A stretch of 64,000 nucleotides of DNA from Nemertoderma westbladi (lineage: Eukaryota; Animalia; Xenacoelomorpha), in assembly GCA_032718475.1 (NCBI GenBank), contig JAUCBJ010008852.1, forward strand, positions 1 through 64,000, given 5' to 3'. A program made the position numbers and the translations under genes. The notes under the pieces are model-generated. The model did no database searches. It saw nothing but the letters and a program-made list of their open reading frames with translations, and was not told where the DNA came from. Shown here piece by piece: positions 1 to 49,979 of this stretch (position 1 is its first letter; each line of letters opens with the position of its first letter).

Positions 1-1290
1 ATGTAGAAGTTCGGTGTAGTTGGGGTAGGAACGTGTACAGTAAAACTCACCAGTATTAGTTGGAGTTGTAGAAGTGCGGAGTAGTTGGGGTAGGAACGTG
101 TACAGTAAAACTCACCAGTATTAGTTGGAGTTGTAGAAGTTCGGTGTAGTTGGGGTAGGAACGTGTACAGTAAAACTCACCAGTATTAGTTGGAGTTGTA
201 GAAGTTCGGTGTAGTTGGGGTAGGAACGTGTACAGTAAAACTCACCAGTATTAGTTGGAGATGTAGAAGTTCGGAGTAGTTGGGGTAGGAACGTGTACAG
301 TAAAACTCACCAGTATTAGTTGGAGTTGTAGAAGTTCGGAGTAGTTGGGGTAGGAACGTGTACAGTAAAACTCACCAGTATTAGTTGGAGTTGTAGAAGT
401 TCGGTGTAGTTGGGGTAGGAACGTGTACAGTAAAACTCACCAGTATTAGTTGGAGTTGTAGAAGTACGGAGTAGTTGGGGTAGGAACGTGTACAGTAAAA
501 CTCACCAGTATTAGTTGGAGTTGTAGAAGTTCGGTGTAGTTGGGGTAGGAACGTGTACAGTAAAACTCACCAGTATTAGTTGGAGTTGTAGAAGTTCGGT
601 GTAGTTGGGGTAGGAACGTGTACAGTAAAACTCACCAGTATTAGTTGGAGTTGTAGAAGTTCGGAGTAGGAACGTGTACAGTAAAACTCACCAGTATTAG
701 TTGGAGTTGTAGAAGTTCGGTGTAGTTGGGGTAGGAACGTGTACAGTAAAACTCACCAGTATTAGTTGGAGTTGTAGAAGTTCGGTGTAGTTGGGGTAGG
801 AACGTGTACAGTAAAACTCACCAGTATTAGTTGGAGTTGTAGAAGTTGGGGTAGGAACGTGTGCAGTAAAACTCACCAGTATTAGTTGGAGTTGTAGAAG
901 TACGGAGTAGTTGGGGTAGGAACGTGTACAGTAAAACTCACCAGTATTAGTTGGAGTTGTAGAAGTTCGGAGTAGTTGGGGTAGGAACGTGTACAGTAAA
1001 ACTCACCAGTATTAGTTGGAGTTGTAGAAGTTCGGTGTAGTTGGGGTAGGAACGTGTACAGTAAAACTCACCAGTATTAGTTGGAGTTGTAGAAGTTCGG
1101 TGTAGTTGGGGTAGGAACGTGTACAGTAAAACTCACCAGTATTAGTTGGAGTTGTAGAAGTTCGGTGTAGTTGGGGTAGGAACGTGTACAGTAAAACTCA
1201 CCAGTATTAGTTGGAGTTGTAGAAGTTCGGTGTAGTTGGGGTAGGAACGTGTACAGTAAAACTCACCAGTATTAGTTGGAGATGTAGAAG
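1..1290. repeat. Satellite A, 65-bp tandem repeat (~20 units, runs off the left edge)
   Basis: Unit AGTTGTAGAAGTTCGGTGTAGTTGGGGTAGGAACGTGTACAGTAAAACTCACCAGTATTAGTTGG repeats every 65 bp, with occasional ~10-bp internal deletions (near 665 and 845). It ends abruptly at the LTR TG at 1291. Confidence 0.97.
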
Positions 1291-2290
1291 TGTAATGGTA
1301 GAGCGTCTATGAATCTCAGATCCAATTTACATTTATACATTACACACCAATTATGTTCAGTAACAATGCCAATATATTACGGTACACTCTATTCGACATA
1401 CCTATTCAGCAGAAGCCGTCCTCTGATTGGCCCTGCATCAGATTATTAATGCCGTTATTATTACAGCCAATTATGTTGCTCAGTTCCTAATGGTAATAAG
1501 TAATTATAGAGGTCAACTCTTATACTATATAATAGCAGTAACAACAATTTATTTGCACTCTCTCCTTGTTATTCAGTTGACTCTGTTGGTAGCTTTAATT
1601 AGTTTTGGAGGGATGGTAATTTACTCCTATTTGTTACCAGGTTCAGGTTCAGGTTCAGCTTCAGACACTTAAATTACAAATTATCATTAACACTTGTGCT
1701 ATTAAACTCTTACAATTACAACGTATTTTACAGTCAGACATAATATTTACATCCCTCCATTGTTTATTATTTCAAGTATTACGTAGTCCAATATGGCCGT
1801 ATTATCTAGTTAAGTTAAGTTTTATGCTGTAATATTTATTTGTGTGCGGATCTTCTCATAGACGCAAGGCCTACAGTGCAGTGCAATTCAGGAGGAACGG
1901 GTGGTAGCGTCCGGACGAATTATTTGTTGGTAAGTGTATATCAATATTACAAATTACGTAACCCTTTGTTTCAATCAATACTAAATATACAACATATTAT
2001 ATTCTTTGATATTGATGTTATTGTCCACCTGCGTAAGCAAAAGGGGGAAGTAATTGCCATCCTGTCCGTAGCTATTGATGTACCCTGTACCCTTCTGCCC
2101 ATTCTCCTCGGGAAAACAAGTGCCACTGGGAAGGGCCTTTGTTGGATTAGAAGTGTGTGGTAGCCGACGGACGTAAAGTAACGGGTTACTACGCTAGCGG
2201 TTGCTAGAGTGGCTGTGGCATTTCGGTGGCCGGCGTTATCTTTCACATTAAGGCAGTGGGGATAGACGCATGCAGCGGGGGTCCCATACA
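1291..2290 (+). repeat. 5' LTR of BEL element (1000 bp)
   Basis: TGTAATGGTAGAGC...GGGTCCCATACA. It matches 13459-14457 with about 10 differences counted by eye, including a 1-bp indel. TATATAA at 1526-1532 and a (GGTTCA)n tract at ~1640-1663. Confidence 0.96.
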
Positions 2291-2303
2291 GTAACAAATA
2301 GGA
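2291..2303 (+). promoter_or_regulatory. Primer-binding-site position occupied by a sequence complementary to the LTR (candidate self-priming PBS)
   Basis: GTAACAAATAGGA directly follows the LTR CA and is the exact reverse complement of TCCTATTTGTTAC at 1625-1637. There is no TGG-initiated tRNA PBS. Confidence 0.65.
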
Positions 2304-2528
2304 ATATTTTGACTGAATCAGAAGGGTACCGGTACAATACTGTAGACCCTAATTATTATTTTACAGCTATCGATTATTACATTGCAGGTATTTTGGCTGG
2401 AAATAACTAAAGTTTAATTATACATCAATTTTTTTTCAGTTTTGTTTTTTTTCAAAATTATTCCGAATTTTTTTTTCGTCAAAATTTTGTTATCCCAGTA
2501 ACATAATATTTAATACGGAAGCACCACG

Positions 2529-2558
2529 GCTGCAGATTGAGTCGACGCGATCTGCAGC
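2529..2558 (+). other. Leader hairpin with palindromic loop (DIS-like)
   Basis: GCTGCAGATTG-AGTCGACG-CGATCTGCAGC forms an 11-bp stem (one G-U) with the GTCGAC palindrome in an 8-nt loop. Confidence 0.5.
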
Positions 2559-2974
2559 AGTTGGACCAACAGTATTAAACAAATAAAAAAAAAACTTTAT
2601 AAATTTTGCATATTCACAAAAACCCCCTAATCTGCAGTTAGCCGGTTTTTGCGTGAGGGTTTATAAGTTACCGGCAGAGTCAAATGTGTGAGAGAGTCCT
2701 TTGTCCCATAGCGTCCTACCGTGGGGTAAGTATACAGTAAGTTCAATTTAGAGCATTCATCTCATCATTCACTATTTTTTTGTATTTGTTTCTTTGCATT
2801 TATTTTCTCATTTCGCCCTATTGTCTCGTAACATACAGTATGATACACTATTCTGTACTATTTGTGTATGATTTACTTCCCGTAAGCTCGGTACTGTAAG
2901 CTCGTATTGAATATACTGTATAGCTGTATATAGTAAGTACGCCTATATGCAGTATAACTTTATATACTACATTT

Positions 2975-3195
2975 TCTATGTACTGAACTTCCGCTAAGGT
3001 AAACGCGGTATAGTATTACAAGTACAGTATAACTTTATGTACTAAACTTCCGCTAAGGTAAACGCGGTATAGTATTACAAGTACAGTATAACTTTATGTA
3101 CTGAACTTCCGCTAAGATAGACGCGGTATAGTAGTACAAGTACAGTATAACTTTATGTACTAAATTTTCCGCTAAGTTAGACGCGGTACAGTATA
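2975..3195 (+). repeat. 59-bp tandem repeat (~3.7 copies) in BEL 5' leader
   Basis: Unit TATGTACTGAACTTCCGCTAAGGTAAACGCGGTATAGTATTACAAGTACAGTATAACTT with a few substitutions. Confidence 0.9.
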
Positions 3196-3515
3196 CACTT
3201 TATATGCTATTTTTATAAGCTAAGGTTGACGTAAAGTAGTTTATACTGCAGCAGCGCCAGCGAAGTAAAGGTATACATTCCGGTATAAATCCAGCAATAC
3301 TAGGCGTACTTTATTTTATTATACAGTATACTGTTAGTGTAACTGTTAATTATTCTTTCACTCAACTCAACTAATTGTATATTTTTCTTATATATATATA
3401 TATATACTTTCTGTATTTTTAAATTTGAATAATTATTGTAACTTTATTGTCACACTTTATTATTTACATTTCTTTCATTGGCTTGTTTACATTTCTCCAT
3501 CGATAAGGTTTGATT

Positions 3516-6500
3516 ATGTCTCATCATAACCTATCTAGTAGTAGTAAATCAGGCATCTCTGAGATACAGAGAACCGTTATGCCAGTAGATCCTGGTAGTG
3601 GTAATAGTGACCAAGGATCTTTGGGAAACGGAACTGACAATGACAGACCGACATCAATGGACGAATACCAATCTGCAACGTCTGCTCTCAACTCACGTCA
3701 ATCAGTTCAGCCCACACTTCCATCTCCTATTCTAGGAAGCGCGACAAATGTGCCAAGGCCATTGCGGTCTACAGGGACTGCGCCCATAAATGTGGCACGA
3801 CCTTCACGATCCACAGTTTCTGTTGAGCCCCGTAGAGATGAAGAGAGGACTAGTGAACCGAATGCACAATATACACTTAGGGACAAAACTCGACACAAAA
3901 GTACTTTTTCAGTGACATACGAAAAATTTTTGGTTGAGAAAAAATCGTTGTCTGGTTATAAAAGCCAACTCACCCGCTGTTATAATTTATATCAGCATTA
4001 TGACTCATTGGATCTAAAGTTAGTGTCTTTAAAACAGATCCAGGAGCTCGAAACAGCATTAGAAACAGCCTACCATAAATGCCTTTGTGTTTTTGAGCGA
4101 ATTATTTCAGCAACTACATCAATGGGTGATGAGGAGAACTCACGAAAATATGGTGGAGAAGCTGAGGTGCTTCGTGAAAAATACCAGAGACATCGTGAGG
4201 CCTTGTTTCAAATGTTTAAGGAGAGAAACAAATTGTACACTGTTGGATTCCGAAGTAGCATACTGGAATCTATTGCAACAGACCCACCTGTTGTGGAAAA
4301 TACAAATATTTTGACACCCATAGTAAATAACATGCCGACTTTGGCGCAAGAAGATTACACCATTGTCAGTCAAGCTAATCCTTCTCCTATTCCCTTAGGT
4401 ACAGCAGGAACTAGTGATGGATATGGACATGGACATGGACATGTACAAGCAACCAATCTGCGAACGGATTCAGAATGTAGTATTGCATCGATAGATAACG
4501 TTGCAACACACCAGAAGCCGTCAGAGCAAGGTGAGTCCGTTGCACACTATCACCCATCCCAGTCATGGCGCGGTGTCCCTTTGGATATCGAAAACCCACA
4601 GTGTCTTATAAATCCAGACGATTCTGTGAGTCAAATTAAAGGTAAACGGAGGTCAAAGGGAAGTGCACACACTAGGTCGAGTCGTAGTAGTAGAGTTTCT
4701 GACACTAGTATTTCCGCTATTATGGCTATTGAAAGAGATGCAGCGGCATTGCAGTTAAAGTCAGCGCAAGTGCAGAAACGTAATTCCGCTCAATTAATGA
4801 TGCAAAAGGCACATGCTGATATGCAAAAGGCGCAAGCTGATATGCAAAAGGCGCAAGCTGATATGAAAGCTGAAATGGATAACCAGTTAGCCGCCGATGA
4901 AGCCGAGATGGCTGCATTCAAAGTAACTCTTTTAAAACAAGATCGTATCAGGAAATTGCAACCTGATAAAAATATTCTTAGTTCACAAGACACTGGGGGT
5001 AATGGTGAGTCACCCATGACTGCTGGAGTTACTATTTTACCTAATAGACTACCGGTCAGTACTGTAGCTATTAGTGCCTCTTCAGGTATGTGTGAGGGAC
5101 CTATTATTGATATAGCGAGTACACCAAACGTACAAGTAAGGGGTGTGGATGAATGCCATATGGAAATTGGTGAGTTAAGTTCTGATAACTTGAATGTGTT
5201 GATTCCAAATAAAACTAAACCAGAAGGCACTATGCGTGTCTGTTCTGATACCAATGAGCTCAGTAGAAGCCCTATCACCTCTATCAAATTGCACCAAGTG
5301 CATACTGATCATTGTAGTGGTAGTAATGATTTACCTGTAGGTAAGCACCAGTCGGGTATGGGGGGCGATAATCCAATTTTCGATACCATTGGGGTGTGCA
5401 ATGGAACTCACCTTGATTCAGACGGTAAGACTTCAATTAACCCAGCACCGGTAGCGGCTACACCAAAAAGGGGACCTTTGAACCCAAATTGTTCTCGGGC
5501 CAACGCCCAAAATAAACCCAGTGCTACACATACACAATTTGTAACAAAACAAGAACTGCAAGAATCAATTGCACAACAAATGCAACAATTTATTGGTAGC
5601 AGTTCATTTCCGACTACTACTTCTAGGCAGTCTACACCCATTAGCACAATTTGGTCAACGCCTAGCACCAAGGCAGTGTCATCCAGGGCAGCACTGAAGC
5701 AGCGATATCCATTTTTAACACCGATTCCAGAAGCCAGTGTCGAGGGGCACATAAGCAATGAAGGGTGTGTATTTTGTGATGCAATTGGTCCGGCATCTAC
5801 TATCTATTATAGCACCAAAGGTGACCCATATCACAAGTACAATGCTGGTAATATAGCAACACCTTTCCCACACCCAACACCAATAATGCCAGATACATAT
5901 TCAACAGCAATGCACAATAATATCACAATTAGCGACCCCTCTGTCGAGCATCCGCATCTAGTAACTGAGCCACACTTACCAGCAGCTCCTATAGTCTCAA
6001 TGGCAACTCCCGAGGTGCAATCAATCACAAACACAAAGGAATCATTCCCTCATAATGCTGAGCACATAACTTACCCGATCCCAGTATTATCCACATCTGC
6101 ACAGTCTGAACGAAAACGAAGGCAATGGCTAGCAGGTATGGCTGATTCCAGGAATGCTGATCCTCGAAATGTAACAGACATGGGAGACTCAACTGAAAAC
6201 AAACATGCACCCAGCATTCAACTGCAGAAGTCGCTAAGGGATACAGCATTGAGCAGGGCAGACGAAGCCTTTACCAAAGTATTGGGCATACGAGCACCGC
6301 GGCAACCAGAGCATACACCAGTTGCAGGAGAAGTCTCACAAATTGGTCAACTTGGGGCGAGCCATATAGCAGGGCAGCCGGAGACGCAGCTACTCAAGGA
6401 GATATCAATGCGGCTACGACTTCCACCTCAATTCCCAACCCCATTTGATGGTGATCCTGTTAAATTTATGGGATTCATACAGAACTTTTATGATCGGGTC

Positions 6501-9245
6501 CATATCAGTGATATAACAGACTCTGAGAAACTGACTATGTTATTAATGTGCACTGAAGGGCAACCAAAGGAACTCATACAGAGTTATGTGGGTATACAAG
6601 ATGGATACGGGGAAGCCTTGCAAATTCTACAAGAACGTTACGGCTTACCAAATGTAATAATAGAAAGAGCGATTACTCGTCTGATAGATCATGATATGAT
6701 TGCGGAAAATGATAGAGAAGCACTGCGGAATTATGCAGATAAAATAAAACATTCGATGATAGTTCTAGAACAACTCAATAAACCCCAGGAATTGTACACA
6801 CAAAGTAATATGAAGAAAATAATGGCAAATTGCCCCATTCATGTGCAACGCAGATGGAATCGTAAGGTTTATGATGTGCGAGAATGCCTTAATAGAGAAC
6901 CAAACTTAGACGAAATGGCGATGTTTATACGTCGGAGTGCCGAAATACAAAACGAAAATGTTTTTAAGATTGATGAGTCACGGAAGCACTATGTCAAGAG
7001 TTCTACTTCAACTTTAAAGATGAGACACGATGAGATTATGCCAATAAGGAAGGAGACTACACTAATAGCACCTATGATGCCCAAGGATGACCAAAGATTT
7101 AAGGAAACCCAGCCAGCGAATAAACCTATAGAGGCTAACAAGGCTCGGCAATATAATAAACAACGGCAATCAACACCGCAACAACTACAACGTAATGTTT
7201 TACCGCCAGAGTACCCACTTGTATTGCAGCAACCTTTCCAGCAGCAACCATTGCATTTCTCAAATCCACAGCAATATCCACAAGCATCACCACAATTTCA
7301 ACAGTATACAACATATCCAGACCAGCAGCAATTTATGCGACCTGATCACCAGGCGCAGCAAAGATGGCAGCAATATCCTAGACAATCTAACCCGCGGCAA
7401 CTAAACACTTATGTAGTGCCAACACATCAAAATACGTCATATGGGAGACAACAAAATGGTACAGATCCTGTAGCTTTTAAAGAAGTTCGTCAAGCCTTTT
7501 GTAAATATTGCAAGGTTACCGGACATCGTGTATATGGTTGCTCGAAATTCGCAGAGTTAAGCTTCGATGAAAGAATGACTTACATTAAAGGAAATGGAAA
7601 CTTGTGTTATAATTGTTTTGGTGGACACTCACTGGAAAATTGCAAATCACAAGGAAAATGTGCAACATGCGACTCAAAGACGCACCACTCACTTTTACAC
7701 CCGCCACAAACAAAGGAAGGAAACAAACTAAGCTCCAAACAGGAGCTCGGACTAGTGATGCATGCAGAAGAAAGATACACTAGCATGTTACCTGTAGTTC
7801 CAGTCGAAATAAAGGTTCCCGGATCATCAAGAGGAATCACAACGTATGCATTACTAGACTCTGGAGCAACAACATGTTTCGTTGACAAACAAATTGTCAC
7901 CAAGCTCAATCTTGAAGTTGCGACAAGAAATGTATTAGTAGGAACGCTATTTGGACCAGATGAGGAAATTTCAATATCAAGAACGACATGCACAGTTTCA
8001 GCTATTTTACCAGGTTATCATAGCGAAATTTTAGTAAAAGACCTTAATGTACATGAAGAGATGCATTTTGACTCGCAATTGCCGGATAAATCTGTTTCAA
8101 AACGTTGGCCTCATTTATATCATCTTCATGATCAGCTCGATTATCCTTCACTTGACATTAATAAAGTGTTCATAATCATAGGAGTAAATATACCATTAGC
8201 CCACTATCGAAAGAATCAGTGCTTTGGAGGTGGTAATAAACGGGAACCATTTGCTATTGAATCTTTATTCGGATGGTGTGTTGCAGGTCCGAAAAGAAAT
8301 AATATAATTAGCGAGGAGAGACACAAGGTAGCTTTTATTAACTCGAGTATAATGAAAGAAGGTCCAGTGTATGATACAATGAATTACCCCTTACCAAATC
8401 CAGACAATGATTTACAGAAACAGCTACAACACTTCTGGACATTGGAAGGACAAGGTTTCAATACACCAGCAGATAAAGTAGAAAAGGCCCCAGAGGATAT
8501 TAGAATTGATAATTTAATGACAGAAATCAAACTGTCACCAGACAACCATTACGAAATGCCGTTGCTATGGAAACATGATCACCCTGTACTAATTAACAAT
8601 TATCCATTGGCATTATCCCGGTTAAATAGTTTAAAAAGAAGATTCGCGACGCAACCTGGCAAGGAAGATGAATGTAGAGAAATTATTAATGAATACATAG
8701 AAAAGGGATATGCAAGGAAAATGTTGCCTCATGAACTCGTAAACAAGCCAGCCACGTATTATTTGCCATGGCACTTTGTTACAAATCCAAACAAGGAAAA
8801 GATTCGTATAGTGTGTGATGCAGCAGCCGTGTACAGAGGCATGTCACTTAATTCACAACTATTAGAAGGTCCACCTCAAACTAGCCTTCTATTAGGCGTG
8901 TTACTCAGATTTAGACAGGAACAAATAGCCTTTGGGTGCGACATTAAGTCTATGTTCTATCAGGTTAGGGTATCAACGAATGATGCAGATAGTCTGCGCT
9001 TTCTATGGTTTGATAAAGGACAGGGCCATCTCCCACCAACCATATATCAGATGCTAGTCCAAGTATTCGGTTTACGTTCATCGCCACATAACGCAAGCAA
9101 GGGATTGCGAAAGACAGCTAAGGACAATGAAGAAACATTCGGCAAAGAAGTTGTTGAAACCGTAAATAAACATTTCTATGTCGATGATGGTATGAAGTCA
9201 TGTCGAACTATAGCAGCCGCCATCAATCTTGCTATAATAAGTTGA
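3516..9245 (+). CDS. BEL polyprotein, N-terminal part: long Gag, aspartic protease and RT up to YVDD
   Basis: Gag core (FDGDPVKFMGFIQNF...LQERYG), knuckles CKYCKVTGHRVYGC / CYNCFGGHSLENC / CATCDSKTHHSLLH, protease ALLDSGA, RT motifs YYLPWH, KIRIVCDAAA, DIKSMFYQV, FGLRSSP, FYVDD. First ATG at 3516. Confidence 0.93.
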   Translation: MSHHNLSSSSKSGISEIQRTVMPVDPGSGNSDQGSLGNGTDNDRPTSMDEYQSATSALNSRQSVQPTLPSPILGSATNVPRPLRSTGTAPINVARPSRSTVSVEPRRDEERTSEPNAQYTLRDKTRHKSTFSVTYEKFLVEKKSLSGYKSQLTRCYNLYQHYDSLDLKLVSLKQIQELETALETAYHKCLCVFERIISATTSMGDEENSRKYGGEAEVLREKYQRHREALFQMFKERNKLYTVGFRSSILESIATDPPVVENTNILTPIVNNMPTLAQEDYTIVSQANPSPIPLGTAGTSDGYGHGHGHVQATNLRTDSECSIASIDNVATHQKPSEQGESVAHYHPSQSWRGVPLDIENPQCLINPDDSVSQIKGKRRSKGSAHTRSSRSSRVSDTSISAIMAIERDAAALQLKSAQVQKRNSAQLMMQKAHADMQKAQADMQKAQADMKAEMDNQLAADEAEMAAFKVTLLKQDRIRKLQPDKNILSSQDTGGNGESPMTAGVTILPNRLPVSTVAISASSGMCEGPIIDIASTPNVQVRGVDECHMEIGELSSDNLNVLIPNKTKPEGTMRVCSDTNELSRSPITSIKLHQVHTDHCSGSNDLPVGKHQSGMGGDNPIFDTIGVCNGTHLDSDGKTSINPAPVAATPKRGPLNPNCSRANAQNKPSATHTQFVTKQELQESIAQQMQQFIGSSSFPTTTSRQSTPISTIWSTPSTKAVSSRAALKQRYPFLTPIPEASVEGHISNEGCVFCDAIGPASTIYYSTKGDPYHKYNAGNIATPFPHPTPIMPDTYSTAMHNNITISDPSVEHPHLVTEPHLPAAPIVSMATPEVQSITNTKESFPHNAEHITYPIPVLSTSAQSERKRRQWLAGMADSRNADPRNVTDMGDSTENKHAPSIQLQKSLRDTALSRADEAFTKVLGIRAPRQPEHTPVAGEVSQIGQLGASHIAGQPETQLLKEISMRLRLPPQFPTPFDGDPVKFMGFIQNFYDRVHISDITDSEKLTMLLMCTEGQPKELIQSYVGIQDGYGEALQILQERYGLPNVIIERAITRLIDHDMIAENDREALRNYADKIKHSMIVLEQLNKPQELYTQSNMKKIMANCPIHVQRRWNRKVYDVRECLNREPNLDEMAMFIRRSAEIQNENVFKIDESRKHYVKSSTSTLKMRHDEIMPIRKETTLIAPMMPKDDQRFKETQPANKPIEANKARQYNKQRQSTPQQLQRNVLPPEYPLVLQQPFQQQPLHFSNPQQYPQASPQFQQYTTYPDQQQFMRPDHQAQQRWQQYPRQSNPRQLNTYVVPTHQNTSYGRQQNGTDPVAFKEVRQAFCKYCKVTGHRVYGCSKFAELSFDERMTYIKGNGNLCYNCFGGHSLENCKSQGKCATCDSKTHHSLLHPPQTKEGNKLSSKQELGLVMHAEERYTSMLPVVPVEIKVPGSSRGITTYALLDSGATTCFVDKQIVTKLNLEVATRNVLVGTLFGPDEEISISRTTCTVSAILPGYHSEILVKDLNVHEEMHFDSQLPDKSVSKRWPHLYHLHDQLDYPSLDINKVFIIIGVNIPLAHYRKNQCFGGGNKREPFAIESLFGWCVAGPKRNNIISEERHKVAFINSSIMKEGPVYDTMNYPLPNPDNDLQKQLQHFWTLEGQGFNTPADKVEKAPEDIRIDNLMTEIKLSPDNHYEMPLLWKHDHPVLINNYPLALSRLNSLKRRFATQPGKEDECREIINEYIEKGYARKMLPHELVNKPATYYLPWHFVTNPNKEKIRIVCDAAAVYRGMSLNSQLLEGPPQTSLLLGVLLRFRQEQIAFGCDIKSMFYQVRVSTNDADSLRFLWFDKGQGHLPPTIYQMLVQVFGLRSSPHNASKGLRKTAKDNEETFGKEVVETVNKHFYVDDGMKSCRTIAAAINLAIIS

Positions 9246-12200
9246 TAGAATGTCTCAAAATGGGCGGTTTCAGACTTACCAAATTCGTGAGTAACTCAAA
9301 GGAATTTATGTCAGCTATACCAAAGGAGGATAGAGCTAGTCCAGACTTGGATTTAGACCTAGATAGAATGCCAATTACTAGAGCTCTAGGAGTTAAATGG
9401 GACACTGGGACTGACATGATAGGGATACAATCAACACCATGGAAAACCATAACAACTAAGAAGGAATGTCTGTCTCTGATAGCCAGCATTTATGACCCTC
9501 TTGGACTTGTTAGCCCAGTAATTCTAATTGGGAGGCGATTCATGAGAGAACTAACCCTTACTGTACCTAAATGGGACACTAAACTTAGCAACGAGTTTCT
9601 AACAAGATGGTCTACTTGGTCTGACCAACTCTATTTATTGAAGCAAATTCAGTACCCTAGAGCATATTTTCCAGACCAACAGAACTCAGATCAAATAGAA
9701 TTGCACGTTTTTTGTGATGCATGCGAAACAGGTTATGGAGTAGTTGCATACCTTCGACAATTACGGCATATTTTTCCACCTTCGGTATGTCTCGATATAT
9801 ATGAAGCCGAGCAGCACGACACAAAGTCAATTGCCTATGAAGCCCGTACCGCATTTGTATCATCACGAGTGAGGACTGTAGATCATAAGTTTTTATCTAT
9901 TCCGCGAAAAGAATTACAGGCAGCACTGTTAGGATCGAGGATGGGTTCGAATCTCACAGAAGAATTGCAATTTTCATTTACTGCTATTCACTATTGGAGT
10001 GACTCGAAATCAACATTAAATTACATTGCAAATTATGGCAGACGTTACCCCACCTTCATTCTTAATAGAGTCCATGAGATAACAACAGTGTCCAAGCCAT
10101 CACAATGGCACCATGTAAAGGGAAAAGAAAACCCCGCCGATATAGCTAGTAGGGGAGCTTTCCCTCAAGAGTTTGTTAATAAATTTCCAAAGTGGAAATC
10201 TGGTCCTTCATTTCTGAAATCTAATGAATTAGCTTGGCCTTCATCGGAAGACATGTATACTGGTAGACCTCCGATTGCGGGAATGGAGCTCAAATCGCAG
10301 CCAAAGGCTGGGGACATGAATCCAAGAGATGATGTCGCATACATTGAAGATCCATGCCCAAAAATACAGACTTTAAATAGTAACGAAGATTTAAAACTTA
10401 GGGAGAAAATAATACTAACAAGCATCAAACAAGTTGATTCCACAAGAAAGTCATCTGAAATTTCTAAACGGGAGTATTGGAAGAACATAGAACTAGCACA
10501 AATTCGGAAGTTAACAGTTATTAATCCACCAATCTCACGAAATTATACTAATGCAGAAAGTTTAGATGTTGTGAAGGTTACTGACGAAGATACCTTGTTA
10601 GATCCATTAAATTGGGAACTAAGACCGTTGATACATGATCTATTACCGCCAACACATACAATCATGAATGATAATGTTATTGACATCAACAAACAAGTAA
10701 TAACTGGCGTCAAAACCACAATTTCTGATAATGAAATATTCAAGATACCTTACCAGAACAATACTGAAACAGCGAGTATTGGTATCGATAATGTATCAGA
10801 AATAATAAGTGACCCATCTTATCAAAGGTTTGAAGTAGCAATAGTTTCGAATAGCGTCATTGAAAATAACCTAATACTGGACTTATTGATAGAACGCAGT
10901 GGTAAATGGAATCATATAGTCAATCAAGTGGGATGGTTAACTCGTTTTAAGCGATGGATTCAACAGATAGCAAGAATAAGTCCTAAGGTGAGGCAAGACT
11001 TTGAAATGAAGAAATCTACAAACTTACCCGCATCACAGATGTGTAAGGCACATAAATGTATCAAATCATATACCATGGAGATAATGGAGCGAATGTCGTT
11101 AAGAAAGGAAGAGAGTAGGAGACTGAGTTCATATGAATTCTACGATGCAGAAAGACAACTTATACGATATAGTCAAGCTAGGAAATTCCCAGTAGAACTT
11201 GGCAGGCTAAAAAGGGGATTTTTAGTAAACAAATCAAGTCCGTTGTATAAACTCCGCCCTTTTTTGGACGAGAATAATGTTATTCGTATGGGATCTCGAA
11301 TTATTAAGGCGCCATTTGATCGAGATATGAAAGCACCCATCATCATACATCGAAGTGATATAATCGCAACTCGTATAGTTCATCAAATTCACCGCTATAA
11401 TTTACATGCAGGAAGAGACCACACTCTAACCAATGTCAGGAAGCGATTTTGGATTGTGGGGGGCCAAGCTTTAGTGAGAAATATATTATCAAACTGCATC
11501 ATTTGCAAGCGTAATCATCCAACTGTGATGAAACAACTCATGGCGCCATTGCCACTTGAAAGATTAACCGCCTACGAACCTCCTTTTACTTTCACGGGTG
11601 TGGACTATTGGGGACCCATGACTGTTAAGATCGGTCGACGAAGTGAGAAGCGCTGGGGTGCGATATTCACTTGTCTAACCAGCCGAGCAGTTGCATTGGA
11701 TATTGCATACGATGCATCAGCTGCATCATTTATCAATGTATATAGACGTTTTATTTGTTGCCATGGAGATGTGAAACTCATCAGATCAGACAATGGTACT
11801 TGTTTCGTAGGGGCGGAGCGGGAACTTCGGGAAGCCATGGTAGAGTGGGATTCTGGAATAATTGAGAACAGCTTAGGACCAGAGACTAAGTGGAAGTTCC
11901 ACACCCCATATGCTAGCCATACATCTGGTGTTTGGGAGCGCCTTATAAAGATCGTTAAGGACGCCCTAAGGTCGTCCATTGGTAGCCATTTAGTTGATGA
12001 GGATACTTTACGTACAGCTTTAGCGGAAATTGCCAGGTCATTGAACTCTAGACCACTTTACGCGGCATCTGACGACCCTACTGCAGATCAACCGTTAACT
12101 CCAAATGACTTGTTGCTACGGCGGCCAGCTTCGAAGGTTCCAGGTCAATTCGACACCAATGCTATATATTCGAAACGAACTTGGCAGCAAGGGCAGATCC

Positions 12201-12514
12201 TGGCTAAGGTGTTCTGGGATCGATGCATTCCATTGTTGAGAGAGCGACAGCGATGGTTCACAAAGAAACGTAACATTCGTAAGGGAGACCTAGTATTAGT
12301 GATGACCGATACCAAGGTGAGGGGAACATGGGTAACGGCGGTAGTAGACTCTGTTGATGCGGGAGAAGACAACCTAGTGCGTTCAGTGAAAGTTCGCTAC
12401 AACGGCCGCATATACTCCAGAGATATTTCGAAACTCTGCTTGCTAGAGGGTTCTACATTTCCCGCTAACAATGCAGGAAGGGAAGAAGTGAATTCTTCAG
12501 TCATAGAAGATTAA
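9200..12514 (+). CDS. BEL polyprotein, C-terminal part: RT end, RNase H (Pao peptidase_A17-like region), integrase; continues ORF1 across a frameshift at ~9230
   Basis: GGFRLTKFVSN, YDPLG, LHVFCDAC, SIPRKELQAA, WSDS, NPADIASRG, integrase H-H-C-C (HRYNLHAG...CIIC), GVDYWGP, SDNGT, GVWERL and C-terminal GDLVLV...VRSVKV. Confidence 0.93.
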   Translation: MSNYSSRHQSCYNKLIECLKMGGFRLTKFVSNSKEFMSAIPKEDRASPDLDLDLDRMPITRALGVKWDTGTDMIGIQSTPWKTITTKKECLSLIASIYDPLGLVSPVILIGRRFMRELTLTVPKWDTKLSNEFLTRWSTWSDQLYLLKQIQYPRAYFPDQQNSDQIELHVFCDACETGYGVVAYLRQLRHIFPPSVCLDIYEAEQHDTKSIAYEARTAFVSSRVRTVDHKFLSIPRKELQAALLGSRMGSNLTEELQFSFTAIHYWSDSKSTLNYIANYGRRYPTFILNRVHEITTVSKPSQWHHVKGKENPADIASRGAFPQEFVNKFPKWKSGPSFLKSNELAWPSSEDMYTGRPPIAGMELKSQPKAGDMNPRDDVAYIEDPCPKIQTLNSNEDLKLREKIILTSIKQVDSTRKSSEISKREYWKNIELAQIRKLTVINPPISRNYTNAESLDVVKVTDEDTLLDPLNWELRPLIHDLLPPTHTIMNDNVIDINKQVITGVKTTISDNEIFKIPYQNNTETASIGIDNVSEIISDPSYQRFEVAIVSNSVIENNLILDLLIERSGKWNHIVNQVGWLTRFKRWIQQIARISPKVRQDFEMKKSTNLPASQMCKAHKCIKSYTMEIMERMSLRKEESRRLSSYEFYDAERQLIRYSQARKFPVELGRLKRGFLVNKSSPLYKLRPFLDENNVIRMGSRIIKAPFDRDMKAPIIIHRSDIIATRIVHQIHRYNLHAGRDHTLTNVRKRFWIVGGQALVRNILSNCIICKRNHPTVMKQLMAPLPLERLTAYEPPFTFTGVDYWGPMTVKIGRRSEKRWGAIFTCLTSRAVALDIAYDASAASFINVYRRFICCHGDVKLIRSDNGTCFVGAERELREAMVEWDSGIIENSLGPETKWKFHTPYASHTSGVWERLIKIVKDALRSSIGSHLVDEDTLRTALAEIARSLNSRPLYAASDDPTADQPLTPNDLLLRRPASKVPGQFDTNAIYSKRTWQQGQILAKVFWDRCIPLLRERQRWFTKKRNIRKGDLVLVMTDTKVRGTWVTAVVDSVDAGEDNLVRSVKVRYNGRIYSRDISKLCLLEGSTFPANNAGREEVNSSVIED

Positions 12515-12838
12515 TATCGGTAGTCATTGTAATTTAGAAGCTATATTGATTTATGCTAACAAACTAGAAAGATAATAAACTTTAATTATGTGGGAAATAT
12601 TGAAGTCATAATTGTTTGAATCGGGAATGATTTTCATCAATTTGATTTGTATGTATGTGTATTATATGTATCTACGTAAATAAGTAACTAATTCATATTC
12701 ATTTCGTTTTCATGTGCTCTACTTGGCTTCGATGTATCTACGGGGACCTATCACCAAGCTGAAATCTAAGTATGAATGAAGTTTTAGCAAAGATGACGTC
12801 GTATATCAGTTCATTATGGGTATATCAGTTCATTATGG

Positions 12839-13010
12839 GATTAATTCGCTAGCGCAGGGAGCGCTGGTGTTGAGTCGGTTTCGTTCGATTAATTCGCTAG
12901 CGCAGGGAGCGCTGGTGTTGAGTCGGTTTCGTTCGATTAATTCGCTAGCGCAGGGAGCGCTGGTGTTGATTCCGTGTTCGTTTCGATTAATCCAGAGAGC
13001 GCTAGGGTTG
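12839..13010 (+). repeat. 48-bp tandem repeat (~3.5 copies) in BEL 3' UTR
   Basis: Unit GATTAATTCGCTAGCGCAGGGAGCGCTGGTGTTGAGTCGGTTTCGTTC. Each unit has a CTAGCGC/GCGCTGG mini-hairpin. Confidence 0.9.
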
Positions 13011-13458
13011 AATAAACATAATCGGGTCGATGACGTCACGAAGTACCGACATATCACAACTGATTCGACGACACTGATGCACACAATGAGATTCTCATGG
13101 ATTGTTATGACTTCAACAGACTCGGATCTATCGTAAACTCAAGAGTTCAGCTTAGGTGAACTATGGGACCTTTTGGTGACGGCTTTAGTAGAAATATTAA
13201 GTAACATATAACATATTTTTTAAGCAAAATGATAACTTGTGCAATTTGTAGTGTAGGGACAACGCCACTCGTTCATTCCAAAGGGTTATGGGTTTTCAGT
13301 TTCATAAATTTATCAAATTGGGAGGTGTGGGTATATAACTGGAATTTACTTTCAGTTTCAAATAGGCCTATATCAATTTCGCTGACATGTCTCTGTAGAT
13401 TCATATCCGGGTTTTTAAAAATAAATTTTTTTCAAAAAATATTTTTTTTAGGAAGCAC

Positions 13459-14457
13459 TGTAATGGTAGAGCGTCTATGAATCTCAGATCCAATTTATAT
13501 TTATACATTACACACCAATTATGTTCAGTAACAATGCCAATATATTACGGTACACTCTATTCGACATACCTATTCAGCAGAAGCCGTCCTCTGATTGGCC
13601 TTGCATCAGATTATTAATGCCGTTATTATTACAGCCAATTATGTTGCTCAGTTCCTTATGGTAATAAGTAATTATAGAGGTCAACTCTTATACTATATAA
13701 TAGCAGTAACAACAATTTATTTGCACTCTCTCCTTGTTATTCAGTTGACTCTGTTGGTAGCTTTAATTAGTTTTGGAGGGATGGTAATTTACTCCTATTT
13801 GTTACCAGGTTCAGGTTCAGGTTCAGGTTCAGACAGTTAAATTACAAATTATCATTTACACTTGTGCTATTAAAATCTTACAATTACAACGTATTTTACA
13901 GTCAGACATAATATTTACATCCCTCCATTGTTTATTATTTCAAGTATTACGTAGTCCAATGTGGCCGTATTATCTAGTTAAGTTAAGTTTTATGCTGTAA
14001 TATTTATTTGTGTGCGGATCTTCTCATAGACGCAAGGCCTACAGTGCAGTGCAATTCAGGAGGAACGGGTGGTAGCGTCCGGACGAATTATTTGTTGGTA
14101 AGTGTATATCAATATTACAAATTACGTAACCCTTTGTTTCAATCAATACTAAATATACAACATATTATATTCTTTGATATTGATGTTATTGTCCACCTGC
14201 GTAAGCAAAGGGGGAAGTAATTGCCATCCTGTCCGTAGCTATTGATGTACCCTGTACCCTTCTGCCCATTCTCCTCGGGAAAACAAGGGCCACTGGGAAG
14301 GGCCTTTGTTGGATTAGAAGTGTGTGGTAGCCGACGGACGTAAAGTAACGGGTTACTACGCTAGCGGTTGCTAGAGTGGCTGTGGCATTTCGGTGGCCGG
14401 CGTTATCTTTCACATTAAGGCAGTGGGGATAGACGCATGCAGCGGGGGTCCCATACA
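13459..14457 (+). repeat. 3' LTR of BEL element (999 bp)
   Basis: TG...CA copy of 1291-2290, preceded by a T-tract and only a short purine stretch (AGGAAGCAC). Confidence 0.96.
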
Positions 14458-17400
14458 CACTCACACAGATACTTTACACGAACCCCCTTCGATCGAGGCT
14501 TTATTTGCACTCACACAGATACTTTACACTGCCCCCACTTCGAGGCTTTATTTGCACTCACACAGATACTTTACACTGCCCCCACTTCGAGACTTTATTT
14601 GCACTCACACAGATACTTTACTCTGCCCCCACTTCGAGGCTTTATTTGCACTCACATAGATACTTTACACGAACCCCCTTCGATCGAGGCTTTATTTGCA
14701 CTCACACAGATACTTTACACTGCCCCCACTTCGAGACTTTATTTGCACTCACACAGATACTTTACACTGCCCCCACTTCGAGGCTTTATTTGCACTCACA
14801 CAGATACTTTACACTGCCCCCACTTCGAGGCTTTATTTGCACTCACACAGATACTTTACACTGCCCTCACTTCGAGGCTTTATTTGCACTCACACAGATA
14901 CTTTACACTGCCCCCACTTCGAGGCTTTATTTGCACTCACACAGATACTTTACACTGCCCCCACTTCGAGGCTTTATTTACACTCACACAGATACTTTAC
15001 ACTGCCCCCACTTCGAGGCTTTATTTGCACTCACACAGACACTTTACACTGCCCTCACTTCGAGGCTTTATTTGCACTCACACAGATACTTTACACGAAC
15101 CCCCTTCGATCGAGGCTTTATTTGCACTCACACAGATACTTTACACTGCCCCCACTTCGAGGCTTTATTTGCACTCACACAGATACTTTACACTGCCCCC
15201 ACTTCGAGGCTTTATTTGCACTCACACAGATACTTTACACTGCCCCCACTTCGAGGCTTTATTTACACTCACACAGATACTTTACACTGCCCCCCACTTC
15301 GAGGCTTTATTTGCACTCACACAGATACTTTACACTGCCCCCACTTCGAGGCTTTATTTGCACTCACACAGATACTTTACACGAACCCCCTTCGATCGAG
15401 GCTTTATTTGCACTCACACAGATACTTTACACTGCCCCCACTTCGAGGCTTTATTTGCACTCACACAGATACTTTACACTGCCCCCACTTCGAGGCTTTA
15501 TTTGCACTCACACAGATACTTTACACTGCCCCCACTTCGAGGCTTTATTTACACTCACACAGATACTTTACACTGCCCCCCACTTCGAGGCTTTATTTGC
15601 ACTCACACAGATACTTTACACGAACCCCCTTCGATCGAGGCTTTATTTGCACTCACACAGATACTTTACACTGCCCCCACTTCGAGACTTTATTTGCACT
15701 CACACAGATACTTTACACTGCCCCCCACTTCGAGGCTTTATTTGCACTCACACAGATACTTTACACGAACCCCCTTCGATCGAGGCTTTATTTGCACTCA
15801 CACGGATACTTTACACTGCCCCCACTTCGAGGCTTTATTTGCACTCACACAGATACTTTACACGAACCCCCTTCGATCGAGGCTTTATTTGCACTCACAC
15901 AGATACTTTCCCTTTCCCCACTTCGAGGCTTTATTTGCACTCACACAGATACTTTACACTGCCCCCACTTCGAGGCTTTATTTGCACTCACACAGATACT
16001 TTACACTGCCCCCACTTCGAGGCTTTATTTGCACTCACACAGATACTTTACACGAACCCCCTTCGATCGAGGCTTTATTTGCACTCACACAGATACTTTA
16101 CACTGCCCCCACTTCGTGGCTTTATTTGCACTCACACAGATACTTTACACTGCCCCCACTTCGAGGCTTTATTTGCACTCACACAGATACTTTACACTGC
16201 CCCCACTTCGAGGCTTTATTTGCACTGACACAGATACTTTACACTGCCCCCCACTTCGAGGCTTTACTTGCACTCACACAGATACTTTACACGAACCCCC
16301 TTCGATCGAGGCTTTATTTGCACTCACACAGATACTTTACACTGCCCCCACTTCGAGGCTTTATTTGCACTCACACAGATACTTTACACTGCCCCCACTT
16401 CGAGGCTTTATTTGCACTCACACAGATACTTTACACTGCCCCCACTTCGAGGCTTTATTTGCACTCACACAGATACTTTACACTGCCCCCACTTCGAGGC
16501 TTTATTTGCACTCACACAGATACTTTACACTGCCCCCACTTCGAGTCTTTATTTGCACTGACACAGATACTTTACACTGCCCCCACTTCGAGGCTTTATT
16601 TGCACTCACACAGATACTTTACACTGCCCCCACTTCGAGGCTTTATTTGCACTCACACAGATACTTTACACTGCCCCCACTTCGAGGCTTTATTTGCACT
16701 CACACAGATACTTTACACTGCCCCCACTTCGAGGCTTTATTTGCACTCACACAGATACTTTACACTGCCCCCACTTCGAGGCTTTATTTGCACTCACACA
16801 GATACTTTACACTGCCCCCACTTCGAGGCTTTATTTGCACTCACACAGATACTTTACACTGCCCCCACTTCGAGGCTTTATTTGCACTCACACAGATACT
16901 TTACACTGCCCCCACTTCGAGGCTTTATTTGCACTCACACAGATACTTTACACTGCCCCCACTTCGAGGCTTTATTTGCAATCACACAGATACTTTACAC
17001 TGCCCCCACTTCGAGGCTTTATTTGCACTCACACAGATACTTTACACTGCCCCCACTTCGAGGCTTTATTTGCACTCACACAGATACTTTACACGAACCC
17101 CCTTCGATCGAGGCTTTATTTGCACTCACACAGATACTTTACACTGCCCCCACTTCGAGGCTTTATTTGCACTCACACAGACACTTTACACTGCCCTCAC
17201 TTCGAGGCTTTATTTGCACTCACACAGATACTTTACACTGCCCCCACTTCGAGGCTTTATTTGCACTCACACAGACACTTTACACTGCCCTCACTTCGAG
17301 GCTTTATTTGCACTCACACAGATACTTTACACTGCCCCCACTTCGAGGCTTTATTTGCACTCACACAGACACTTTACACTGCCCTCACTTCGAGGCTTTA

Positions 17401-20400
17401 TTTGCACTCACACAGATACTTTACACTGCCCCCACTTCGAGGCTTTATTTGCAATCACACAGATACTTTACACTGCCCCCACTTCGAGGCTTTATTTGCA
17501 CTCACACAGATACTTTACACTGCCCCCACTTCGAGGCTTTATTTGCACTCACACAGACACTTTACACTGCCCTCACTTCGAGGCTTTATTTGCACTCACA
17601 CAGATACTTTACACTGCCCCCACTTCGAGGCTTTATTTGCAATCACACAGATACTTTACACTGCCCCCACTTCGAGACTTTATTTGCACTCACACAGATA
17701 CTTTACACTGCCCCAACTTCGAGGCTTTATTTACACTCACACAGATACTTTACACTGCCCCAACTTCGAGGCTTTATTTACACTCACACAGATACTTTAC
17801 ACTGCCCCCACTTCGAGGCTTTATTTGCACTCACACAGATACTTTACACTGCCCCCACTTCGAGGCTTTATTTGCACTCACACAGATACTTTACACGAAC
17901 CCCCTTCGATCGAGGCTTTATTTGCACTCACACAGATACTTTACACTGCCCCCACTTCGAGGCTTTATTTGCACTCACACAGACACTTTACACTGCCCCC
18001 ACTTCGAGGCTTTATTTGCACTCACACAGATACTTTACACTGCCCCCACTTCGAGGCTTTATTTGCACTCACACAGATACTTTACACTGCCCCCACTTCG
18101 AGGCTTTATTTGCAATCACACAGATACTTTACACTGCCCCCACTTCGAGGCTTTATTTGCACTCACACAGATACTTTACACTGCCCCCACTTCGAGGCTT
18201 TATTTGCACTCACACAGATACTTTACACTGCCCCCACTTCGAGGCTTTATTTACACTCACACAGATACTTTACACTGCCCCCACTTCGAGGCTTTATTTG
18301 CACTCACACAGATACTTTACACTGCCCCCACTTCGAGGCTTTATTTGCACTCACACAGATACTTTACACGAACCCCCTTCGATCGAGGCTTTATTTGCAC
18401 TCACACAGACACTTTACACTGCCCCCACTTCGAGGCTTTATTTGCACTCACACAGATACTTTACACTGCCCCCACTTCGAGGCTTTATTTGCACTCACAC
18501 AGATACTTTACACGAACCCCCTTCGATCGAGGCTTTATTTGCACTCACACAGATACTTTACACTGCCCCCACTTCGAGGCTTTATTTGCACTCACACAGA
18601 CACTTTACACTGCCCCCACTTCGAGGCTTTATTTGCACTCACACAGATACTTTACACTGCCCCCACTTCGAGGCTTTATTTGCACTCACACAGATACTTT
18701 ACACGAACCCCCTTCGATCGAGGCTTTATTTGCACTCACACAGACACTTTACACTGCCCCCACTTCGAGGCTTTATTTGCACTCACACAGATACTTTACA
18801 CTGCCCCCACTTCGAGGCTTTATTTGCAATCACACAGATACTTTACACTGCCCCCACTTCGAGGCTTTATTTGCACTCACACAGATACTTTACACTGCCC
18901 CCACTTCGAGGCTTTATTTGCACTCACACAGATACTTTACACTGCCCCCACTTCGAGGCTTTATTTGCACTCACACAGACACTTTACACTGCCCTCACTT
19001 CGAGGCTTTATTTGCACTCACACAGATACTTTACACTGCCCCCACTTCGAGGCTTTATTTGCACTCACACAGACACTTTACACTGCCCTCACTTCGAGGC
19101 TTTATTTGCACTCACACAGATACTTTACACTGCCCCCACTTCGAGGCTTTATTTGCACTCACACAGACACTTTACACTGCCCTCACTTCGAGGCTTTATT
19201 TGCACTCACACAGATACTTTACACTGCCCTCACTTCGAGGCTTTATTTGCACTCACACAGATACTTTACACTGCCCCCACTTCGAGGCTTTATTTGCAAT
19301 CACACAGACACTTTACACTGCCCTCACTTCGAGGCTTTATTTGCACTCACACAGATACTTTACACTGCCCCCACTTCGAGGCTTTATTTGCACTCACACA
19401 GACACTTTACACTGCCCTCACTTCGAGGCTTTATTTGCACTCACACAGATACTTTACACTGCCCCCACTTCGAGGCTTTATTTGCACTCACACAGACACT
19501 TTACACTGCCCTCACTTCGAGGCTTTATTTGCACTCACACAGATACTTTACACTGCCCCCACTTCGAGGCTTTATTTGCACTCACACAGATACTTTACAC
19601 TGCCCTCACTTCGAGGCTTTATTTGCACTCACACAGATACTTTACACTGCCCCCACTTCGAGGCTTTATTTGCACTCACACAGACACTTTACACTGCCCT
19701 CACTTCGAGGCTTTATTTGCACTCACACAGATACTTTACACTGCCCCCACTTCGAGGCTTTATTTGCACTCACACAGACACTTTACACTGCCCTCACTTC
19801 GAGGCTTTATTTGCACTCACACAGACACTTTACACTGCCCTCACTTCGAGGCTTTATTTGCACTCACACAGATACTTTACACTGCCCCACTTCGAGGCTT
19901 TATTTGCACTCACACAGATACTTTACACTGCCCCCACTTCGAGGCTTTATTTGCAATCACACAGATACTTTACACTGCCCCCACTTCGAGGCTTTATTTG
20001 CACTCACACAGATACTTTACACTGCCCCCACTTCGAGGCTTTATTTGCACTCACACAGACACTTTACACTGCCCTCACTTCGAGGCTTTATTTGCACTCA
20101 CACAGATACTTTACACTGCCCCCACTTCGAGGCTTTATTTGCAATCACACAGATACTTTACACTGCCCCCACTTCGAGACTTTATTTGCACTCACACAGA
20201 TACTTTACACTGCCCCAACTTCGAGGCTTTATTTACACTCACACAGATACTTTACACTGCCCCAACTTCGAGGCTTTATTTACACTCACACAGATACTTT
20301 ACACTGCCCCCACTTCGAGGTTTTATTTGCACTCACACAGATACTTTACACTGCCCCAACTTCGAGGCTTTATTTACACTCACACAGATACTTTACACTG

Positions 20401-49949: not shown

Positions 49950-49979
49950 GCCCTCAACCCAACAGTTTAAACTTTTCAG

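What the first reader, a model, noticed from the sequence alone, without database searches (positions are those of the whole stretch)
1625..2303. BEL/Pao retrotransposon with an apparent tRNA-independent, self-priming PBS
Seen: the 13 nt immediately after the 5' LTR (GTAACAAATAGGA, 2291-2303) are the exact reverse complement of LTR nt 1625-1637 (TCCTATTTGTTAC, also at 13793-13805). Pairing stops exactly at the LTR boundary, so the 3' end of the LTR segment sits on G2291 and would be extended straight into U5. No TGG/tRNA-CCA complement is present. Known: this is the geometry of Tf1/sushi (Ty3/gypsy) self-priming, where the transcript 5' end folds onto the PBS and is cleaved to give the primer, whereas BEL/Pao elements are generally described with tRNA PBSs. 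Inference: a BEL lineage may have independently evolved self-priming. A 13-mer chance match within 1 kb is on the order of 1e-5 to 1e-4. Caveat: TATATAA at 1526 predicts a start near 1555-1575, so the primer segment may be internal rather than at the cap, implying a variant mechanism.
Basis: partly seen in the sequence, partly recalled or inferred. Interest (0 to 1): 0.82.

Follow-up and report, generated by a model that had tools for sequence, protein, structure and literature searches.

The report
BEL/Pao retrotransposon primes with own RNA
This jumping gene of the BEL/Pao group has no tRNA landing site where DNA copying must start; it carries there 13 bases that pair exactly with its own terminal repeat, as do most distant relatives that could be tested, each with its own letters, so it likely starts copying with a piece cut from its own RNA, a trick described in the papers we found only for other retrotransposon groups.

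Summary
Observation confirmed: 2291-2303, directly after the 5' LTR (1291-2290), is the exact complement of LTR 1625-1637; no TGG follows the LTR. The element is BEL/Pao by Pfam and motifs. The junction is family-wide: contigs of two studies cross it unchanged. Of 9 distant relatives (35-40% identity) whose LTR end is fixed by the second LTR, 8 carry a 10-15 nt complement of their own LTR and of no other (0 of 90 cross-pairs reach 10); 5 of the 8 pair only across a canonical LTR intron; 1 has a TGG site. Eight of 10 primers end in AC. So self-priming is likely (about 0.8), and is lineage-wide, not special to this copy. Against the simple Tf1 picture: the primer probably lies about 70 nt inside the transcript and is predicted to be locked by a stronger helix (to 2025-2074) unless transcription starts near 1623. 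No RNA data and no host tRNA set were available. This scan already noted the same signature in other genomes; eight literature searches found no BEL/Pao case.

The parts
1291..2290 (+). 5' LTR, 1000 nt, TGT...ACA
   Evidence: alignment with 3' LTR
1526..1533 (+). TATA box; predicts a start near A1557 (31 nt on)
   Evidence: sequence; start is inferred
1621..1627 (+). initiator-like YYANWYY with A at 1623: second candidate start, which would put the primer at the RNA 5' end
   Evidence: motif scan, (1 of 9 such motifs in 1291-1700, so weak)
1625..1637 (+). candidate self-primer segment, ends in AC
   Evidence: exact complement of 2291-2303
1701..1706 (+). ATTAAA, the only AATAAA/ATTAAA in the LTR; candidate poly(A) signal that would put the primer in R
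   Evidence: use inferred
1930..1935 (+). GTAAGT splice-donor-like site; the 10 nt before it also pair weakly with the PBS (-6.7 kcal/mol)
   Evidence: use not shown
2025..2074 (+). arm predicted to pair with 1600-1647 and hide the primer (-45.5 kcal/mol; 0 of 300 shuffled targets as strong)
   Evidence: prediction
2291..2303 (+). primer-binding site complementary to the LTR, no TGG
2312..2332 (+). leader stretch with further predicted pairings to 1564-1577 and to U5 2084-2097
   Evidence: prediction, significance not tested
3507..9245 (+). ORF1 (first ATG 3516): gag with DUF1759 and three Cys-His boxes (7500-7688), protease LLDSG (7851), RT to YVDD (9177)
9188..12514 (+). ORF2 in another frame: rest of RT, RNase H (Peptidase_A17 family), integrase, DUF5641; the frame break lies within RT
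13450..13458 (+). short purine-rich tract and spacer before the 3' LTR (candidate PPT); its last two bases AC mirror the GT after the 5' LTR
   Evidence: sequence
13459..14457 (+). 3' LTR with second copy of the primer segment at 13793-13805

Best explanation
This is a BEL/Pao LTR retrotransposon whose primer-binding site is the exact complement of a 13-nt stretch of its own LTR, and it likely starts minus-strand DNA synthesis with its own RNA instead of a tRNA. Steps: (1, shown) PBS and LTR segment are complementary and this holds family-wide and, with other letters, in distant relatives; (2, inferred) LTR-derived RNA 1625-1637 anneals to the PBS; (3, inferred by analogy with Tf1) the RNA is cut after the AC at 1636-1637, probably by the element's RNase H, giving a 3'-OH at the LTR boundary; (4, inferred) RT extends through U5, and the DNA jumps to the 3' R; copying the primer back during plus-strand synthesis would keep PBS and LTR matched. 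For this element the most likely primer is a capped fragment of about 80 nt from a start near 1557 (about 0.45); alternatives within the model are a short Tf1-like primer from a start near 1623 (0.2) or a primer supplied in trans or from the 3' R copy, which lack the blocking arm (0.15). A 2-nt shorter primer (GT then being the usual extension removed by integrase) is not excluded.
For: Exact 13-nt match at offset 0, no TGG; meets the published prediction rule of at least 10 nt starting 0-5 nt after the LTR (PMC6317226, passages). Junction unchanged in X1 and X3 contigs. PBS-by-LTR matrix: own LTR at least 10 nt in 9 of 10 elements, 0 of 90 cross-pairs, 2 of 600 leader controls reach 10. In 5 of 9 relatives the match exists only after removing a GTAAG...YAG intron, which points to RNA as the pairing partner. 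Sisters L008 and L003 differ at two primer positions with both PBS positions compensating. 8 of 10 primers end in AC (6e-10 if independent, but they are kin). Five relatives fold primer onto PBS in cis with P 0.5-1.0. RNase H acidic motifs are present. In L008 the spliced primer begins 31 nt after a TATA box, i.e. at the predicted RNA start.
Against: No RNA or cDNA data for this element. In the 1557-2340 RNA the primer:PBS pair probability is 0; the primer pairs with 2025-2074 instead; it rises to 0.58 only with a start at 1623. Removing an intron from donor 1930 to the best-looking acceptor (2071) did not restore pairing (0.002); 10 of 16 candidate acceptors gave over 0.5 at 37 C. A host tRNA match could not be excluded. 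No close sister family of this element could be read at both sites, so covariation is shown only for relatives. 8 of the 10 bounded relatives come from one accession series and may share few hosts. Two loci with a fixed start (L016, L023) gave no match of 10 or more.
Confidence: 0.8

Rival explanations
1. The pairing is a selected RNA structure or switch (packaging, translation or poly(A) control), and priming uses some other, unrecognised host RNA at the same site.
For: The primer segment has competing partners (2025-2074; 1606-1620 with 1745-1759) as a switch would. Priming was not observed.
Against: The match always starts 0-5 nt from the LTR end, is perfect, 10-15 nt long and usually ends in AC; PBS sequences differ in every family, which no single host RNA could serve; the one relative with a TGG site lacks self-complementarity (4 nt).
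Confidence: 0.11
2. A host tRNA fragment (half molecule or internal piece) primes, and the LTR holds a captured copy of that tRNA piece.
For: Half-tRNA priming exists in copia lineages (PMC6317226, passages); the LTR segment continues CA, so it reads like a CCA end; host tRNAs were not testable.
Against: No tRNA or other Rfam family of note in 1200-3600 at E up to 5; ten different primer sequences, five of them existing only after splicing, would each need their own tRNA.
Confidence: 0.06
3. Chance match or a copy-specific deletion of a normal TGG site.
For: This copy is not pristine: no target-site duplication, frame break in RT.
Against: Chance about 1e-3 or less; junction identical in contigs of two studies; L041, and by a looser scan L046 and L072, show the same zero-offset CA|GT geometry.
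Confidence: 0.03

Closest known systems
Tf1/Tf2 (S. pombe), Tj1 (S. japonicus) and the Tf1/sushi group of Ty3/gypsy elements
   Same: PBS right after the 5' LTR is complementary to a short LTR segment; Tf1 pairs its first 11 bases and RNase H cuts between bases 11 and 12 (PMC7175516, passages; PMC4600332, passages). Tf2 controls access to its self-primer by choice of start site (PMC5341516, passages).
   Different: Different superfamily (BEL/Pao). The primer here is probably internal (about +69 to +81), 653 nt from the PBS, and predicted to be masked; relatives often build it across an intron; cleavage not shown.
Tcn1 chromoviruses and TAR (Houba, Osr-1) copia elements
   Same: Self-priming predicted from the same sequence signature (PMC6317226, passages), so the trait has arisen in more than one superfamily.
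   Different: Plant and fungal gypsy/copia; no BEL/Pao case is named in those passages.
Described BEL/Pao elements (Belpaoviridae; Sinbad; Achilles)
   Same: Domain order, triple Cys-His box, LLDSG, YVDD (PMC554778, passages).
   Different: ICTV gives an 18-nt PBS for tRNA-Arg or tRNA-Gly and host-tRNA priming (PMC8742986, whole text); Achilles has a tRNA-Tyr PBS (PMC4580426, passages). At 13.2 kb this element also exceeds the ICTV range of 4.2-10 kb.

Membership tests
BEL/Pao (Belpaoviridae) | Two LTRs flanking gag-pol in the order PR, RT, RH, IN | tested here: met
BEL/Pao (Belpaoviridae) | Pao-specific families and triple Cys-His box | tested here: met
   DUF1759, Peptidase_A17, DUF5641 above cut-off; three boxes at 7500-7688
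BEL/Pao (Belpaoviridae) | 18-nt PBS complementary to a host tRNA 3' end (descriptive in the ICTV profile, not a phylogenetic criterion) | tested here: not met
   no TGG within 100 nt; this is the finding
BEL/Pao (Belpaoviridae) | Target-site duplication | tested here: not met
   flanks differ and are two different satellites; copy-level feature
Named BEL/Pao clade (Sinbad/Sailor, Suzu, Pao, BEL, Tas, Dan, Flow) | RT/RH tree position against reference elements | not testable with these tools
   no named references available; the element is a long branch of unsure place
Tf1/sushi group | Ty3/gypsy chromovirus RT-IN lineage | tested here: not met
   BEL/Pao domains; not a member
Tf1-type self-priming (works like) | At least 10 nt complement to 5' LTR starting 0-5 nt after the LTR | tested here: met
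   13 nt, offset 0 (rule)
Tf1-type self-priming (works like) | Primer is the very 5' end of the transcript | tested here: inconclusive
   TATA predicts 1557 (internal primer); initiator-like motif at 1623; no RNA data
Tf1-type self-priming (works like) | Fold-back forms in cis | tested here: inconclusive
   P 0 from 1557, 0.58 from 1623; 0.5-1.0 in 5 of 5 relatives folded
Tf1-type self-priming (works like) | RNase H cleavage releases the primer and RT extends it | not testable with these tools
   needs 3' end mapping or biochemistry

The most novel reading that the evidence does not exclude
A large part of the BEL/Pao superfamily primes reverse transcription with its own RNA by a mechanism distinct from Tf1: the primer may be internal, is cut after a conserved AC, is in many families assembled by host splicing, and in this family is gated by a long-range helix, so that start-site choice or splicing decides whether a transcript can be copied.
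Probability: 0.35. Interest if true: 0.85.

Novelty: new variant of a known kind. Interest (0 to 1): 0.72.

Why it matters
The ICTV profile calls BEL/Pao replication poorly understood and assumes host-tRNA priming. If these elements self-prime, tRNA-independent initiation is present in all three LTR superfamilies, PBS-based annotation misses or mislabels many animal elements, and such elements would escape control through tRNA supply or tRNA fragments (inference). An internal or splice-made primer with a conserved AC end gives a sharp, cheap test (3' end and strong-stop mapping) of how an RT/RNase H makes a primer from an RNA duplex. The scan has met this signature before in other genomes, so this window adds an independent family, a cross-family specificity test and a possible gating helix, not the first sighting.

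Tried and rejected
No whole genome is held, so no host tRNA search and no copy survey. Viral contigs: 31 pattern hits, no relative. No RNA holder listed among 6 runs; this says nothing on expression. Run X4 gave no cover at the PBS (filters may hide contigs). Sister subfamilies were seen at the primer (one X3 contig with two differences inside the segment) but not at the PBS, so covariation inside this family is untested. A splice-junction primer for this element was sought and not found (no junction-spanning match of 10 or more). An element-encoded tRNA was sought: only sub-threshold ARAGORN calls and no tRNA in Rfam. Of 80 loci, 30 showed a direct repeat; 10 had an LTR end fixed by both copies; L065 was dropped from the matrix because its repeat does not end like an LTR (best match 6 nt). 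The scans (413 and 11,403 candidate ends) are exploratory, give chance hits of 11-12 nt, and are not counted as tests. The 81-row tree finished only in quick mode. Clade naming was not possible. Similar-sequence look-up among earlier findings was empty; same-genome notes were on other subjects; one search was empty. A recalled report that a nematode BEL element (Cer7) encodes its own tRNA-like primer could not be verified (2 unrelated papers listed).

Full report
Observation. The element spans 1291-14457 with LTRs at 1291-2290 and 13459-14457 (9 mismatches, 1 indel). The 13 nt after the 5' LTR are the exact reverse complement of 1625-1637; the match starts at the first base outside the LTR, and extends to 16 nt with one mismatch. 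No TGG occurs in the first 100 nt of the leader. The chance of this match is 3e-4 to 8e-4 with six offsets allowed; 24 of 20,000 simulated LTRs and 0 of 60 leader positions did as well (the latter not even 10 nt).

Identity. Pfam finds DUF1759, Peptidase_A17, integrase H2C2 and DUF5641 above cut-off; the triple Cys-His box, LLDSG and YVDD match the hallmarks given for Sinbad (PMC554778 passages). It is BEL/Pao. Closest database proteins are only 34-41% identical, the named ones nearly all from aquatic animals. This copy has a frame break within RT (ORF1 to 9245, ORF2 from 9188), no target-site duplication and two different satellites as flanks.

Is the junction copy-specific? Four of 6 listed runs were laid. 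An 896-nt X1 contig and a 270-nt X3 contig cross 2291-2303 with no difference in 2170-2400; X1 may be this DNA's source, X3 is another study. X2 (same sample as X1) covers the site in pieces without differences; X4 has no cover. Three other LTR ends run into unrelated sequence, none beginning with TGG. So the family form has no tRNA-type site.

Relatives. A metagenome scan gave 80 BEL/Pao loci (the viral collection gave none). Thirty showed a direct repeat; in 10 the 5' LTR end was fixed by the second copy; L065 was dropped as its repeat lacks an LTR-like end. For the other 9 plus the window element I scored each PBS against each LTR, contiguous or across GTRAG...YAG introns (the splice idea came from earlier notes e1-7811049 and e1-7882409). 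Own-LTR match was at least 10 nt in 9 of 10: contiguous in the window (13), L041 (11), L056 (11), L058 (10); only across an intron in L008 (12), L025 (15), L031 (12), L068 (12), L075 (13). L009 has a TGG site and a 4-nt match. None of 90 cross-pairs reached 10; 2 of 600 leader controls did. L015 (11 nt, spliced) was first found by a looser scan and its end then agreed with a second insertion. That scan also suggested L046 and L072 and found nothing in L016 and L023. Sisters L008 and L003 (about 68% nucleotide identity) differ at two primer positions with both PBS positions compensating (L003's end located by scan and by alignment offset). Eight of 10 primers end in AC, offsets run 0-5 nt. Caveat: 8 of the 10 bounded relatives (with L015) come from one accession series, and kin are not independent. 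In trees of an RT/RNase H stretch the window element is a long branch of unsure place; self-complementary sites occur in two well-supported groups, L009 in a third; contiguous and spliced types are each rejected as one clade (group labels were set before the second tree but after the first).

Mechanism. The position, perfection, family-specific letters and splice dependence fit an RNA primer taken from the element itself, as shown for Tf1 (first 11 bases, RNase H cut; PMC7175516 passages), and meet the prediction rule used for plant elements (PMC6317226 passages). Where the primer sits in the transcript is open. TATATAA at 1526 predicts a start near 1557, making the primer internal (+69 to +81) as in L041, whereas in L008 the spliced primer begins 31 nt after a TATA box. 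An initiator-like motif at 1623 could give a Tf1-like short primer, but is 1 of 9 such motifs. Folding speaks against a simple fold-back from 1557: the primer is predicted to pair with 2025-2074 (-45.5 kcal/mol, the strongest of the LTR windows scanned, 0 of 300 shuffles), and primer:PBS probability is 0, against 0.58 from 1623. The margin is small: opening the primer costs 8.2 kcal/mol in that RNA and 2.5-3.8 in RNAs lacking the arm, against -16.1 for the duplex. Five of 5 relatives folded pair in cis at 0.5-1.0. A GTAAGT site at 1930 lies just upstream of the blocking arm; its use is not shown, and the best-looking acceptor did not restore pairing. ATTAAA at 1701 would place the primer in R, so a second, arm-free copy would sit at the RNA 3' end. 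Long-range folds of 800 nt are unreliable, so the gating helix is a lead; Tf2's start-site switch is a precedent (PMC5341516 passages).

Known or new. ICTV describes an 18-nt tRNA PBS and host-tRNA priming for the family (PMC8742986, whole text); Achilles has a tRNA-Tyr site (PMC4580426 passages). Term searches within three BEL/Pao surveys gave no PBS or tRNA passage (PMC3118150, PMC554778, PMC6238403). Passages of PMC3601003, PMC8220671, PMC4600332, PMC7472051, PMC5443660 and PMC11042837 named no BEL/Pao self-priming. Eight library searches listed no paper on it; other listed papers were seen as listings only. No supplements were read, and subscription papers, Repbase and GyDB entries, where such a remark could stand, are outside the library. 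This scan has noted the same signature in other genomes (7 notes); those are unchecked and are not counted as evidence.

Verdict. Real feature, lineage-wide, best explained by self-priming (0.8); a new variant of a known mechanism in a superfamily held to be tRNA-primed. Interest 0.72: the comparative signal is strong and directly testable, but priming, start site and cleavage remain inferred.

Noticed in passing
window 2-1291 and 14458-26872: The element sits between a 65-bp and a 47-bp satellite with no target-site duplication; probably a recombinant of two insertions or an assembly join, so the 1% LTR divergence does not date it.
   Followed up: partly
window 1548-1560 and the 47-bp satellite: The 47-bp unit shares a 13-mer with the LTR at the predicted start site; may hint that the satellite derives from a related LTR.
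   Followed up: no
window 1880-1929: In run X4 (guessed DNA) a 50-nt identical, deep contig ends exactly at the GTAAGT site and two contigs go on into unrelated sequence, as spliced RNA would; run type unknown and contigs are filtered, so only a weak hint.
   Followed up: no
L008, L025, L031, L068, L075, L015 (LTRs): Primer complement exists only across a canonical LTR intron; contiguous and spliced types are each rejected as single clades (AU test), suggesting repeated intron loss or gain.
   Followed up: yes
L009 56-80: The one bounded relative with a TGG, tRNA-type site falls in a separate group of the tree; tRNA identity not tested.
   Followed up: partly
window 3516-6400: About 970 residues of low-complexity gag N-terminus without Pfam match, with a 21-bp coding repeat at 4800-4865; leader and 3' UTR hold 59-bp and 48-bp tandem repeats.
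   Followed up: no
window 51649-53931: Perfect array of 380 copies of the hexamer ACAGTT; the LTR has a short related CAGGTT run right after the primer (1638-1661).
   Followed up: no
window 27983-64000: 22-kb 27-bp satellite, 17-bp satellite, several non-LTR reverse transcriptase-like fragments (55.7-57.2 kb, 59.7-64 kb) and an immunoglobulin-like exon near 49950 (labels from recalled motifs, not searched).
   Followed up: no
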